From assembly GCA_030141605.1 (NCBI GenBank), contig JAQGDQ010000025.1, forward strand, positions 102,185-166,184: a stretch of DNA of 64,000 nucleotides, in the 5' to 3' direction. Both the position numbers and the translations under genes were made by a program. The notes below the pieces were generated by a model. That model saw only the letters and a program-made list of their open reading frames with translations. It had not been told where the DNA came from and searched no databases. This DNA comes from Tubiluchus corallicola (taxonomy: Eukaryota > Animalia > Priapulida). This document shows positions 23,101 through 32,100 of this stretch, piece by piece. Position 1 is the stretch's first letter. Every line of letters begins with the position of its first letter.

Positions 23101-26100
23101 AGTTGTCCAGACAGTTTTGTGTAGATTTATGCATTTTAACTAGACTGAAAAGTCAGTTTTAAAATTCCACACATTTTCAATTTCAACCAGCTTTACAATC
23201 CCTCTTATGTTGCGATGCGATCCAGAACACTATGGTGCACCAACTCTTTCCCGTGGAATTATGCAATGCCATGTATAAACTTTAATATATTTGAAAAACT
23301 TGTGCATTATAGGTTATTGACAGCAGCATGCCACAACGTTGCTACAAGTATAAACAAATTTTGAAACAATTTGTAGGAAACTTCCACACATTACTGATGC
23401 ACATTATTAAAACGTTTTGAACGAGTCAGTAAACGGACTACCAAGTGACCTATACTTAAGTAGTTTTTCTACTTAATAGTTTCCTCTAACATTATACAGA
23501 CATCACAGTGCCAATCAAACACTGCCAATTTTTGTTTGGAAATGCACATATTTTGCATTGTGAATTAAAAGTTGTACATCAAAAATATTACATTTGTCTT
23601 AAATCATTTGTCTTTTAACACAACTTAATTATAGACTCTACCAATTTTTCTCGTCCAAAATAACTCTTATAAAGCAAGTATTTTGAATGAACAGAGAACA
23701 ACAAGTTAATCAGTTCAATGAAATGTCATCTATGCTTATTTATTACAAGTTAATAGGCTCTATACAAAACTTTATGTTGTCAATTTACGTAGAAGTTTGC
23801 ATTAGTACATGCCCAGCACTGCCAGTGTACAAAAGTGCCATCTATATTAAATTACTCCTATTATATTATTGACAGGAAGCCTCCAGTGTCTGGCTTCCTT
23901 CCTAATTTGCATTTTTCCCCAAAACATTTTGTTTGGTTTTGCTACTTTTCCCTCAAATGTACTAGCAACTGTTTCCTTGGATTCCTTGTACTTGAACTTT
24001 AGTTGTTTATGCATTTAGAAGACACAAATATTATTTTATGTCTTCTTGTTGATGGGCCACACAACCTTTTTTCATAACCAACACGGTTATTTCATAATCA
24101 AGTTTTAAGACAGGGCCCTAAATTTAGTTTTCCAAAACTGAGGAATTTCTGAATGCATCACATAAATGTCAATCACCAAAATTTAATAATATTTTCATAG
24201 AAAAAATAGTTTACTTCACCAAATATGAAAACAGAGACAGTTAATTTAAAAAGGCTGCTGCAAAATGTGACTGCAAGTAAAAAGTGCCATGTAAAACAGC
24301 TACCCGAAAAAAATGCAGGTTAACAGATGAGTGAACGTGAACAGTTTACCTCAATGTAACATAGTAAATAGTGCTAATATTAATTACGTTAATTACAACA
24401 AGCATTCTTAGCATCAATTTATCTAGCTATAATAATAGGTAAATTAGCATTTCAAATAACAACTGATAATCTAACCTAACCCGATTGTAACTAAGCAAAT
24501 CAAGCAAAATGTGACAATCAATCAATAATCAATCAATCAAGCACAAAACAGCAAGATTCATATTGACAAGGACATCCTTCAAAAATTCAAGTAATATATG
24601 CTCGCAATTTATGCATCAGTTAAAAAATAATAACACAAACTGATTACGGCTTTTTTTAATGAAAATTCTCATTTTTTTAACTTTAAACTTAAAAATAACA
24701 CAAGAATGTTCAGAACTCTTTCACGATGAAGACATGATTTTAGATTTACAACAACAAATATTTCTTTTCCGTCAAAAGCATTATCGAAAAATCTTTCTAC
24801 TAGGCCACACAAAAACACTGCTGTTATTTTTTAAACGTCGTGGTGTCTTCCCATCCCACAAGTGATGTACTAAACTCAGTTCATTTTAAATAAGGGCTTA
24901 TATGGATGCGTGTAGTTGTAATTGGTAACAGCATCGCTGGGTTTTACTCTGAATATCTGCAACAAAAAATGTCGTATAATCAGCACAACTTTGCTGTGAT
25001 GTTTGCGTAGAATTTTAAACAAATTATTGCAGTTGGAAAAGAACCTGCAACTAGCTATTGTACAAAATTAATAAAACAAGCTAAAATGCTACCTATCTAC
25101 CTATGTAAACTTGCAAGGGTATATAAGTTCTGTGGGATTTAGAATGGGGTACAGTCTTAACTGAAGTACGTTATTTGCATTAATATCGATTTTGAATTAC
25201 TCAAATCAAACCTAAGTTCTGCAACGAAAAGAAACACATTAATAACATTCTGTGAGGTTACAACTTCCTACAATCAAAATCTGGTTTGTTAATTATTATT
25301 ACGAAGGATAAACTTAGAATATTTTGATTATTTTTGTCTTATACAAACTCCACAACAGAAGTAACTTGCTTATAAACTGAAAACATTCAGGATTTGTAGT
25401 AGTTAGATCATCTACTACAGTATTGAAAAAGATTTTGCACACAAGTAACTGATAACCAGAATGATTAATACAATGTAGTTTACTAATATGGTTAAATATA
25501 ATTAAAAAATCAAATGCTTTAATCTGCCCACAGAACATATAAGGTAAGGATTAGGATTAGCAGTAAAACAATTTTTCACTGTAAACACTGTACATTTGCT
25601 AGTAATTTCTAAAAGGGCTGAGACTACACAAATGATCTGCTTCTGCCTAATTCCAAACTGCTATGTCAAAAAGAATTTAACAACAATGCCAACAGCTAAA
25701 TAGTCACCACATATGTTCTGCTGAAATGTTAAACAATGTCAGTCCTTGCAACAAAGATAGATGAACACCAAGAAAACTAAATTTCTCTGTCACTGGTCAT
25801 TATTTTTCTAATTGCAAGAGGCTCTATATGCACACCTAAGTTGATCAAAGTACTTCTGCTGGTAGAATGTCACATCTCTGTGATTATAGCCACCAATGTT
25901 ATGTCAACATTACAGGGTCCTGTGCTAAGTTCTTGTATTGGAGAACCATGTTGAAAGAATGTGCACAAAATGTTTAAAAGTAAAACATTAAACATACTTC
26001 TCCGCGAAGTTGGCGAGCTGTTTTAGACCATTTGAAAATATCTCCGTCGTTGTGATTGCACGACTTGCAACGCTCCTTAATCTCATCAGGAGTAAGAACA

Positions 26101-29100: not shown

Positions 29101-32100
29101 GTTTTTGAGACAATTAGGCAATCGATTCTACATTACCGTGAGTCTTATACATGGTGCCTACTGAATTAACTTAGTATCGGTAAATACAGAGAGTCGGCAA
29201 ATTCTGACCGATGTCTCGCGTTTATCTGGCAAACCGAGACATAAATGTACAATTGGTGAGCATGTGACAACATTTAACATCAATTATCTATAATACATAT
29301 TACATACCCACATATTGAATATTCAAAAAACTGTTTCCGTTTCCCGGGCTCTAAGATGGAGCCCGTTAGCTCAGCATAAGTGTTGTCTCTACCACGGAAG
29401 CAAAGGTCAAATTCGCGCACTACAGAAGAAACACTGTAAACAATTTACTGCGAAACTCTAACTGATGCGGTAAACGTGTGATTGGAAACCAAAACTGTCC
29501 ATAAGTCGGCATAGTTAAAACTACATTATGATGTTTCAAAGTAAAACGCACCAAAAATTTGTTCAAATGTCAAGTTTTTGTGTTTTTTAAAAGAAATGCT
29601 AAATGTAATGGAATTTTTTCTTCTAGCATCAAATAATCAAGAAAATGTTTAAGAAAATACTAAAAATTTAATTTTAAAACCCCTACCCACTTTTTTGGCT
29701 AGAAACTAGTACTACAATTATAAAAAACTCATATTTTCAAACTTCGATAGAAGCTCGTGGAAGCAGTCATTTTGCTTCGGGTTTTTTCTGTTGCCAAGCC
29801 CAGATCTTCGTCAGGAAGAGCCATCTAATGGACTAAAATAGAACTTCTATGTGTTCTTGCAAAGTCCATAGCAACCACCTGCTCATACGGTTGCTAAGTG
29901 TTTTGTAGAAATGCCACAAAAAACAATAACAAACTTTAACAGCGATTTTCTCAAGATTATATTTTTCAATGTGCAGTCTGCACTTCAACTTCAACGTGGA
30001 TTATCTCAGCTTAGAAATAACTCAGAGCGATGAACGTGGTATCAAAATGATTCTCATAAAATGGAAATTCAAGATATATGAATAACTGGAAAAGCTTAAT
30101 TGCCGACTTATGGACGATTTTGCTATTCAACACACAAATATCGATTGCTCACTGGACGTTGTAAACTATACAGATCAGCTATTGCTAAATGAAATTCACG
30201 TAAGGCTTTTAGAAAATTTATAACTATAAATACTTTATATTTTGATGCAGACTTAGCATCTAATAAAGCTATTAACGCAACAGCACAATATCAGTTTTGT
30301 CTAAGAGCTGTTGAATTTAGCAATGTTTTTCGTAATTATTGTGACATAAATATATGTCAATCAGCAAAGAGTTACCAAACTATCAATAACTAACTCACCT
30401 TTACCAGATGCTGCTAAAACAGACATCAATATGAAAACTATGACGTTCATAGTGGTAAATGATTTATAAGCAGTTCCTGCAAGGAAACTAATAACATTAA
30501 AACAGAAAATGTGATTACCACACAAGAACAAAAAGAAATATCAATGAGCAAAAGAAACAGGAAGTAAGAAATAGTGTTACGAGCAGAAACAATATAGTAC
30601 AACAACAGCATGAAAGAAAGAAAAATAAAAATATAATAATATTGGGAATGGAAAAGTAACGTATAACTATGTGATTCTGTCAAATATCAAGAAAACATCA
30701 TAAAAATTTGTATAAATTAAGTTAATGCTAAAACTATTCAAATCTGGTTTGTAATAATAATAATGAATTGATAAGAATAACAATATTATTAATAATAATG
30801 ATGGACAGCAAGACAAAGCAGCAAAATGTGAGTATTTTTAGTGACTTACCAAATGGCATGGTAACGGCTTTGTTTCCTGCTCATCGGCACAAATGACGAA
30901 AAAGTAAATTTCTCTCCGCTTTTTGCATGTGGAAATGACCGCCAAAAGTTTTGCCAGCATCAACTTTATAGGTTGTGACAATGAGTAAATTTTTCTAATG
31001 TCATATTACTTTAGCAAGGGCACTTTTCTGGTAAACGTACGTACTTCAAAAAATCATTGGAAGGTCACAGCCCTCAAGGTGACATTTTAGCGTATTTAGG
31101 CATTTGACTGTCAAACATGAGCTTGACAAATGTGGATTTCAAGTGTCCCTTATACAAACACAAGTACGCAGGTATATTTGAGAATTATCGGCAGCAATTT
31201 AGCAGCCAACACCAAACAATTGTTGCAGCCACAATACTATCTGTGCCAAACTGTACAGGGTAAAAAAAGTACTAAGAAATGCTGCTTGAGCAAATACAGT
31301 TTTTAATACCTTCTTTGGTAAAAATGAAAAACATAACAAAAACTATATCTATGCAAAAACACTTTACTACAAGAAATAGTTAAATTTTGCAATGTTTATT
31401 CCTCTTATAATATTTAAATTAATACAGCACTAGACTAGATGTGCACCTAGTTGGGCAACAGGTCTACATGCTTGCTAGTACCAGGCAAGTTGTGCACTTG
31501 CACGCTGGCATAATTCTGCATGCTTGTTAGTACCAGGCAAGTTGTGCACTTGCACGCTAGCATAGGTCTACATGCTTGCTAGTACCAGGCAAGTTGTGCA
31601 CTTGCACGCTAGCATAATTCTGCATGCTTGTTAGTACCAGGCAAGTTGTGCACTTGCACGCTAGCATAGGTCTACATGCTTGCTAGTACCAGGCAAGTTG
31701 TGCACTTGCACGCTGGCATAATTCTGCATGCTTGCTAGTACCAGGCAAGTTGTGCACTTGCACGCTAGCATAGGTCTACATGCTTGCTAGTACCAGGCAA
31801 GATGTGCACCTGCAAGCTGACTATAGGTCTGCATGCTTGCTAGTACCAGGCAAGTTGCACACCAGCACGCTGACTATAGGTCCGCATGCTTGCTAGTACC
31901 TGGCTAAAAGTATAGCCTTACCATAGTTTTGGAGTTATTTAATGTTACGACTTGAGGAACAAAGCCATTTGAACAAAAGTTTCACACTCTGGCTCCTGTC
32001 TCGGACCCGTAAACAATCACAGGTATTTTTTTTTAATCTAAACCTTTGTCTGGGCCGGGGCGGAACTAGATGTGGCAAGCAGGGGGGGGGGCGCAAATTT

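What the first reader, a model, noticed from the sequence alone, without database searches (positions are those of the whole stretch)
24876..30970. Complete pentraxin gene nested on the same strand inside a PTCD3 intron
Seen in sequence: PTCD3 exon 32837-32749 (..RNPIQ) splices in phase to exon 22820-22698 (WTGEMVG..) across a 9.9-kb intron, by far the largest in the gene. Inside that intron, on the same strand, 6-7 GT-AG exons join without stops into a 254-266-aa protein with a signal-peptide-like N-terminus and the pentraxin motifs in order. Only one of these exons appears in the ORF track. Established knowledge: intronic nested genes are usually antisense to their host, and same-strand nesting is less common because the inner splice and poly(A) signals compete with host processing. 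Inference: this is an intact innate-immunity/lectin-type gene embedded in a mitoribosomal housekeeping gene, which automated annotation could miss or fuse with PTCD3.
Basis: partly seen in the sequence, partly recalled or inferred. Interest (0 to 1): 0.85.

Follow-up and report, generated by a model that had tools for sequence, protein, structure and literature searches.

The report
Pentraxin gene clamped inside PTCD3 intron
A seven-exon reading frame for a divergent pentraxin-like protein, predicted to be secreted, lies on the same strand inside the 9.9-kb intron of a mitochondrial ribosome gene (PTCD3), and two 23-base complementary stretches near the two ends of that intron would likely pair in the host RNA and loop the inner gene out; expression of the inner gene is untested.

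Summary
Six GT-AG coding exons on the minus strand join without a stop into 254 aa (266 with an upstream exon) inside intron 15 (9,928 nt; median intron 984) of an intact 19-exon PTCD3/mS39 gene. Pentraxin homology is clear for the C-terminal half (Pfam E 0.0025, below cut-off; local HMM 42.4 bits against at most 7.8 in 1,000 shuffles) and weak for the N-terminal half. The textbook signature and the GQ[ED]QD calcium motif are altered, so 'innate-immune lectin' is a guess. No RNA run holding the inner gene and no orthologue were found. Same-strand nested genes with introns are a known minority (about 8% of fly nested pairs). New here: a 23-nt helix (22 of 23 paired, two G-U pairs, -27.6 kcal/mol) joins 32693-32671 to 23104-23082 and brackets the whole inner gene. 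It beats 17 of 17 other intron ends and 1,000 of 1,000 shuffles; 0.1-1% of random real-sequence pairs match it. I noticed it after the fact and its conservation is untested. The scan noted a similar stem around a nested gene in another genome. Verdict: a real, uncommon arrangement with a testable loop-out mechanism.

The parts
32749..32837 (-). PTCD3 exon 15 (upstream of the host intron; donor at 32749, phase 2)
32671..32693 (-). 5' arm of the predicted long-range RNA helix, 55 nt into intron 15
   Evidence: (I9)
31460..31904 (.). 52-nt tandem repeat, 8.5 copies, upstream of the inner gene's promoter-like motifs
30933..30970 (-). TATAAA at 30970 and initiator-like TCATTT at 30938-30933: candidate core promoter. 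The pattern occurs 6 times in the window, so it is weak alone
   Evidence: motif definitions recalled
30850..30936 (-). Inner gene exon 0 (5' end inferred): mostly 5' UTR, in-frame ATG at 30859, consensus donor ranked 2 of 645
30399..30476 (-). Inner exon 1: ATG at 30450 and a hydrophobic signal-peptide-like stretch; best splice-site pair of 1,083 open AG..GT segments in the intron
29482..30130 (.). High-copy element with 30-nt inverted ends (MITE-like) in the intron between inner exons 1 and 2
   Evidence: I1; depth 5,364 in that bin of run X1
29308..29419 (-). Inner exon 2 (carries the Cys that aligns with the first conserved pentraxin Cys); exact donor uncertain
28572..28697 (-). Inner exon 3 (126 nt, phase 2-2); exact acceptor uncertain
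27243..27366 (-). Inner exon 4 with the altered pentraxin signature
   Evidence: (12.5 bits alone)
25998..26267 (-). Inner exon 5: Asp-rich loop, C-terminal strands and helix of the pentraxin domain; alternative acceptor at 26297
24876..24956 (-). Inner exon 6, coding part to the stop; acceptor ranked 1 of 565
24655..24660 (-). ATTAAA, the first AATAAA/ATTAAA-type hexamer after the stop (first AATAAA at 23744); 3' end not shown
23082..23104 (-). 3' arm of the predicted long-range RNA helix, 261 nt before the host acceptor
   Evidence: (I9)
22698..22820 (-). PTCD3 exon 16 (downstream of the host intron)
20182..50191 (-). Whole PTCD3/mS39 coding span: 19 exons, 659 aa, hand-built model
   Evidence: three junctions seen spliced in run X2

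Best explanation
A seven-exon frame for a divergent pentraxin-like protein lies on the same strand inside PTCD3 intron 15; it is likely an independent gene with its own promoter, and in the host pre-mRNA the complementary stretches at 32693-32671 and 23104-23082 are predicted to pair and would loop the inner gene out, so that PTCD3 exon 15 likely splices straight to exon 16. Shown: the exons, both frames, the homologies and the complementarity. Inferred, step by step: (1) the inner gene starts near 30936 and is probably active in few cell types; (2) its own transcript starts downstream of the 5' arm, so it cannot form the helix and splices normally; (3) the host transcript carries both arms, and pairing shortens the effective intron from 9,928 to about 316 nt plus the stem, which disfavours the inner splice sites; (4) leaks mostly hit early stops and would be cleared by nonsense-mediated decay; (5) the protein is a secreted, disulfide-bonded single-domain pentraxin whose ligand face differs from CRP, so it probably binds something other than phosphocholine.
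For: Inner gene: 254/266-aa open frame; Pfam Pentaxin E 0.0025; all 6 PDB hits at E up to 10 are PTX3; 5 of 8 library hits carry Pentaxin domains; HMM 42.4 bits against at most 7.8; top-ranked splice sites; both core Cys align. Host: mS39 hits; 35% identity to a spider PTCD3 over 461 columns; the junction maps to about human residue 573, leaving 116 aa in human and 111 here. Need for shielding: inner exon 1 has the best splice-site pair of 1,083 candidates, and 4 of 5 internal inner exons would truncate PTCD3 if included; PTCD3 loss is lethal in fly (PMC10709765, abstract). Helix: 22 of 23 paired; -27.6 kcal/mol on the transcribed strand against -20.3 on the other; score 45 against at most 34 for 17 other intron ends, at most 38 for 306 cross pairs and at most 41 for 1,000 shuffles; each arm matches only its partner in the window at up to 4 mismatches. 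Precedent: conserved boxes near both splice sites change splicing in fly minigenes (PMC2724269, passages).
Against: The helix was noticed after the fact among 64 inverted pairs, and the test width was chosen afterwards. Random real-sequence pairs reach the score in 4 of 3,000, 6 of 1,500 and 5 of 500 trials at widths 300, 500 and 1,000. Five helices in the 30-kb pre-mRNA, this one included, score 45 or more, so only its position is unusual. The 3' arm lies 261 nt from the acceptor, outside the 150-nt default of the fly screen. No conservation or compensatory change could be tested. The geometry also fits decayed terminal inverted repeats of an insertion. Exon 5 falls below Pfam's cut-off (18 against 25 bits), exons 2, 3 and 4 have no Pfam hit alone, and identity to the 22 reference domains is only 18-24%.
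Confidence: 0.5

Rival explanations
1. The inner gene is real, but the complementary pair is chance or a relic of the ends of the insertion that brought the gene in; host and inner gene coexist through separate cell types, ordinary exon skipping and decay of mis-spliced RNA.
For: Five helices of equal or higher score, this one included, occur in the pre-mRNA. Removing the arm-to-arm segment leaves a 316-nt intron, near the host's shortest of 356 nt, as an insertion would. Fly same-strand nested genes are highly tissue-specific (PMC3814207), and nested pairs diverge in expression (PMC5174743, abstract).
Against: No target-site duplication flanks the arms, and similarity does not extend beyond 21-23 nt. 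Two of the three DNA mismatches are G-U pairs on the transcribed strand (weak: about 1 in 4 by chance). The position at both ends of the one intron that needs it has a null rate of 0.1-1%.
Confidence: 0.35
2. The inner frame is a recently silenced gene or young pseudogene that is no longer transcribed.
For: Strong divergence from known pentraxins; one weak acceptor; no close relative in the protein searches.
Against: No stop or frameshift over six exons; top-ranked splice sites; codon use nearer the host's coding sequence than rival intronic frames. Run X1 contigs over 30357-30859, 26198-26561 and 25791-26143 show 0, 0 and 1 differences, against 14 over 23387-23963 (X1 may be the window's own sample).
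Confidence: 0.07
3. The inner exons are an alternative 3' end or cassette of PTCD3 that gives a PTCD3-pentraxin chimera.
For: The host donor (phase 2) is in frame with inner acceptors 28697 and 27366, giving 747 and 705 aa; inner exon 3 would insert 42 aa in frame.
Against: Such joins drop the N-terminal strands of the domain. The inner gene has its own ATG, signal-like stretch and upstream exon. Joining to 4 of 6 inner acceptors gives a stop within 6 codons.
Confidence: 0.04
4. The block is misassembled into the PTCD3 locus.
For: No listed contig piece spans either end of the block.
Against: Host exons run in order and frame on both sides. X1 has depth in all 30 bins, and no listed joint skips the block (15 joints were not shown). 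The paired arms lie at the two ends of the same intron.
Confidence: 0.04

Closest known systems
Same-strand nested genes of Drosophila (Lee and Chang 2013, PMC3814207; passages read)
   Same: A protein-coding gene inside a long intron of an unrelated host, on the same strand.
   Different: There 71.27% of nested genes are antisense, 72.53% of same-strand ones have a single exon, the multi-exon ones have a median of one intron, and their hosts are less often lethal (26% against 42%). Here there are six introns and the host's fly orthologue is essential.
Conserved complementary boxes in Drosophila introns, e.g. the Nmnat intron 4 stem (Raker et al. 2009, PMC2724269; passages), and human PCCR exon loop-outs (PMC8052449; passages)
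   Same: One box near the donor, one near the acceptor of a long intron; intervening splice and poly(A) sites looped out.
   Different: Those are defined by conservation and partly tested in minigenes; this one is from a single genome and untested. Here the looped segment is a whole gene. 'Nested' occurs 0 times in Raker's main text, and the passages shown from PMC8052449 use it for nested helices or loop-outs.
Short pentraxins CRP and SAP; PTX3 and NPTX pentraxin domains; hemichordate pentraxin-repeat proteins (P0001, P0002, P0003, P0006) and the unnamed 230-aa P0007
   Same: Signal-like start, a single domain of about 200 aa, the two core Cys, and the C-terminal helix and Trp motif in order.
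   Different: 18-24% identity; the signature ends Tyr-Asn instead of Trp-x-Ser; GQ[ED]QD is replaced by an Asp-rich loop with an insertion; 10 Cys. PTX3 shows that a pentraxin can lose the metal site (PMC10598717).
PTCD3 / mS39
   Same: PF22330 hit, mS39 PDB hits, length 659 aa against 689 in human.
   Different: Carries a 9.9-kb intron with a nested gene; whether other animals have this nesting was not testable.

Membership tests
Pentraxin family (PF00354) | Sequence homology to the pentraxin domain | tested here: met
   Exon 5: Pfam E 0.0025, 18 bits, under the 25-bit cut-off. Whole protein: 42.4 bits on a local 22-domain HMM against at most 7.8 in shuffles. PDB and library hits are pentraxins. 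The whole protein could not be scanned against Pfam.
Pentraxin family (PF00354) | [quoted passage not shown] | tested here: not met
   His, Cys and Thr are kept; Trp is Tyr and the motif ends Tyr-Asn. 19 of 22 reference domains match when Ser or Thr is allowed last.
Pentraxin family (PF00354) | Core disulfide pair (CRP Cys36-Cys97, PMC13698038) | tested here: met
   Cys54 and Cys119 align with Cys50 and Cys112 of P0007; the bond itself is not shown.
CRP/SAP-type calcium-dependent short pentraxin | Calcium ligands Asp60, Asn61, Glu138, Gln139, Asp140, Glu147, Gln150 | tested here: inconclusive
   GQ[ED]QD, present in 20 of 22 reference domains, is absent. One alignment puts Asp161-Asp163 and Glu79-Glu80 at these columns with a 4-residue insertion; a gapless register puts non-ligands there. 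The mapping of CRP numbers to the motif is recalled.
CRP/SAP-type calcium-dependent short pentraxin | Pentameric assembly and calcium-dependent ligand binding | not testable with these tools
   Needs purified protein.
Pentraxin family (PF00354) | Beta-sandwich fold by structure | tested here: inconclusive
   Only exon 5 could be folded; mean pLDDT 34, unusable.
Secreted protein | Signal peptide | tested here: inconclusive
   The most hydrophobic windows are residues 1-16 (Kyte-Doolittle up to 3.17); no SignalP available.
Same-strand nested gene | Lies wholly in one intron of a host whose exons continue on both sides | tested here: met
   19-exon open PTCD3 model with 15 exons upstream and 4 downstream; the downstream exons had no PDB hit alone but supply the expected length.
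Same-strand nested gene | Transcribed separately from the host | tested here: inconclusive
   No RNA holder was listed; see Tried and rejected.
Conserved long-range intronic RNA helix (Raker boxes, PCCR) | Stable complementary pair near donor and acceptor | tested here: met
   22 of 23 paired, -27.6 kcal/mol, 55 nt from the donor and 261 nt from the acceptor; the 3' arm is beyond the 150-nt default of the fly screen.
Conserved long-range intronic RNA helix (Raker boxes, PCCR) | Conservation or compensatory changes across species | not testable with these tools
   No genome held and no orthologous locus found.
TIR transposon carrying a gene | Target-site duplication and dispersed copies of the ends | tested here: inconclusive
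   No duplication seen in the flanks and no other copies in the window; the rest of the genome was not available.

The most novel reading that the evidence does not exclude
A single 23-bp RNA clamp lets an essential housekeeping gene tolerate a complete six-intron gene on its own strand: the host transcript carries both arms and loops out 9.6 kb, while the inner transcript starts past the first arm and escapes. If such clamps are general, they explain how the intron-bearing same-strand nested genes that selection should purge can survive, and the clamp may itself derive from the ends of the insertion.
Probability: 0.4. Interest if true: 0.65.

Novelty: new member of a known kind. Interest (0 to 1): 0.42.

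Why it matters
Fly data suggest that selection removes intron-bearing same-strand nested genes from essential hosts because they cause mis-splicing (PMC3814207). This locus is such an exception and offers a small, directly testable candidate for how it is tolerated: mutate one 23-nt arm, then restore pairing. Neither of my two searches for RNA helices looping out nested genes listed a paper that, by title or abstract start, describes this (the library lacks most subscription journals), although the scan noted a similar case in another genome. In practice, annotation could miss this gene or fuse it to PTCD3, and the protein is a divergent pentraxin with no close database relative found.

Tried and rejected
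Expression: no RNA holder was listed for 24600-31000; this blank is no evidence either way. Run X2 (RNA is a guess; 32 of 369 letters differ over five PTCD3 exon pieces, so a related organism or strain) shows PTCD3 joins at 38889/38222, 38113/37343 and 22141/21196, but no listed joint for intron 15 or for any inner intron. At 80% likeness one bin over inner exon 5 had depth 2.56, but the record was not shown and I do not count it. Orthologues: none among 90 candidates for exon 5; no close relative among the 8 library hits, of which P0004, P0005 and P0008 lack Pentaxin domains and were dropped from the HMM; 0 of 205 metagenome stretches; L001 and L002 from the PTCD3 exon scan are not PTCD3 loci. 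PTCD3 exon 8 found nothing among 34 candidates; exon 10 found one partial spider protein. No whole genome is held, so paralogues, a parent copy and dispersed copies of the arms are untested. Fold of exon 5: pLDDT 34, not used, no fold search run. Atlas: exon 5 gave unnamed viral clusters first and pentaxin clusters at 0.95, 0.93 and 0.90; exon 4 gave only hits under 0.9. Rfam: 0 matches in the window. The bacterial promoter scan does not apply to this animal. A rival exon at 28156-28010 has stronger splice scores than inner exon 3 but intron-like codon use; rejected. Trans-splicing to the 30476 acceptor was considered and set aside because a consensus upstream donor exists at 30850. Papers holding both PTCD3 and pentraxin: 3, none on this topic by title and abstract start; a wider search listed 20 of 55, none relevant. 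The organism was not identified; the window's intronless acyl-CoA synthetase is not in the collection. No supplements were read.
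Full report
Observation. On the minus strand, exons 30476-30399, 29419-29308, 28697-28572, 27366-27243, 26267-25998 and 24956-24876 have GT-AG ends and join into a 254-aa open frame. An upstream exon with an in-frame ATG at 30859 and a consensus donor at 30850 gives 266 aa. TATAAA at 30970 with an initiator-like motif at 30938 precedes it, but that pattern occurs 6 times in the window. 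With splice matrices trained on the 18 host introns, the donors at 30399 and 30850 rank 1 and 2 of 645 GT sites in the intron, and the last acceptor ranks 1 of 565 AG sites. The other inner donors rank 8-39 and three other acceptors 28-41; the acceptor at 26267 ranks 359. An in-frame acceptor at 26297 scores better and adds 10 aa.

Host. An upstream exon hits PF22330 at E 8e-21 and mS39 chains in the PDB. My hand-built model has 19 exons, 659 aa and no internal stop, and is 35% identical to a partial spider PTCD3 over 461 columns. Through that protein the intron maps to about human residue 573; the human protein has 116 residues left and this one 111, which the four downstream exons supply. 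Those exons had no PDB hit alone. Intron 15 is 9,928 nt against a median of 984. Contigs of run X2 show three other PTCD3 junctions spliced where my model puts them, one with three letters between its sides.

Inner protein. Exon 5 hits Pfam Pentaxin at E 0.0025, below the cut-off. All 6 PDB hits at E up to 10 are PTX3. Of 8 hits in the 1.84-billion library, 5 carry Pentaxin domains, four of them from hemichordates. An HMM from their 22 domains scores the spliced protein at 42.4 bits; 1,000 shuffles and the reverse reach at most 7.8, and the only two frames in the window with E under 0.1 are those holding exons 4 and 5. The N-terminal half is weaker: 36 of 1,018 alternative exon pairs score as well on the profile, but on profile, splice and codon scores together the model ranks 2, and the top three share its outer sites 29419 and 28572. 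The two core Cys align. The signature given in PMC7461825 and PMC10598717 (passages) is not met at its Trp and last Ser. The GQ[ED]QD motif, present in 20 of 22 reference domains, is replaced by an Asp-rich loop whose register is ambiguous (ligand list from PMC13698038, passages). So it works like a secreted single-domain pentraxin, but it is not a signature-bearing CRP-type member, and its ligand is open. An immune role is inference from the family.

How unusual is the nesting? In fly, 71.27% of nested genes are antisense and 72.53% of same-strand ones have one exon, which makes multi-exon same-strand cases about 8% of pairs (my arithmetic). Their median is one intron and their hosts are less often lethal (PMC3814207, passages). 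In mammals, over all biotypes, the antisense bias is slight (PMC11694760, passages). PTCD3 loss is lethal in fly (PMC10709765, abstract and figure legend). Nested genes can force exonization and early polyadenylation on hosts (PMC3192792, abstract). Six introns in such a host is thus at the uncommon end of a known class. The conflict looks real here: inner exon 1 has the best splice-site pair of 1,083 open segments in the intron, and 4 of 5 internal inner exons would truncate PTCD3.

A candidate solution. The repeat scan listed an inverted pair with 9,566 nt between the arms (I9). On the transcribed strand 32693-32671 and 23104-23082 pair at 22 of 23 positions, two of them G-U; the duplex is -27.6 kcal/mol against -20.3 on the other strand. 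Folding the two intron ends together gains 22.4 kcal/mol and forms the helix. The arms lie 55 nt after the host donor and 261 nt before the host acceptor and enclose the whole inner gene. The score of 45 exceeds 17 of 17 other introns' own ends (at most 34), 306 of 306 cross pairs (38) and 1,000 of 1,000 shuffles (41). Against this: I saw the pair first and chose the width afterwards; random real-sequence pairs reach 45 in 4 of 3,000, 6 of 1,500 and 5 of 500 trials; and 5 helices in the 30-kb pre-mRNA, this one included, score 45 or more. The same geometry fits old terminal inverted repeats, although no target-site duplication or longer similarity is seen. In fly, conserved boxes near both splice sites of long introns change splicing, with rescue by compensatory changes (PMC2724269, passages), and human exons looped out by such pairs are included less (PMC8052449, passages). 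The inner transcript would begin 1.7 kb past the 5' arm and so escape the clamp; this step is inference. I put the gene's being functional at about 0.85 and the helix's being functional at about 0.55-0.6.

What could not be tested. Expression of the inner gene, conservation of the nesting or the arms, a fold of the whole protein, and the organism. Earlier notes on this genome guess a priapulid or other non-arthropod invertebrate; I did not test that. Misassembly is not excluded, but nothing points to it.

Verdict. Observation confirmed; interpretation partly supported; a new member of a known kind, with an untested but specific loop-out mechanism that the scan has also noted around a nested gene in another genome. 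Interest 0.42.

Noticed in passing
window 1819-3861 (-): A 680-codon frame without introns for an AMP-binding acyl-CoA synthetase (Pfam AMP-binding, ACAS_N). It looks like acetoacetyl-CoA synthetase (name recalled), which usually has many introns in animals, so it may be a retrocopy that replaced its parent.
   Followed up: partly
window about 52900-62700 (+): Exons with KHA, BTB and pentapeptide-repeat hits: a KCTD9-like gene (name recalled) head to head with PTCD3, whose ATG is at 50191.
   Followed up: partly
window about 8591-16589 (+): Multi-exon gene that reads like an SLC22 organic-cation transporter (recalled from the ORF list); two exons gave no Pfam hit at E 0.05.
   Followed up: partly
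window about 44100 and 43000 (PTCD3 intron 6): A second long-range complementary pair (score 46) brackets the 26-nt, 21-copy tandem array at 43478-44032; it may be the ends of an inserted element or another loop-out.
   Followed up: no
window 29482-30130 and about 38390-38760: High-copy repeats (X1 depth about 5,000 in their bins; many pieces in X2 for the first): a MITE-like element inside the inner gene and a repeat in PTCD3 intron 10.
   Followed up: partly
window 28572-28697 (-): Inner exon 3 is phase 2-2, like the host intron, so it could enter PTCD3 in frame as a 42-aa cassette.
   Followed up: partly
P0010 against window 32749: The partial spider PTCD3 ends about where this intron falls in the alignment, a weak hint of a shared intron position.
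   Followed up: no
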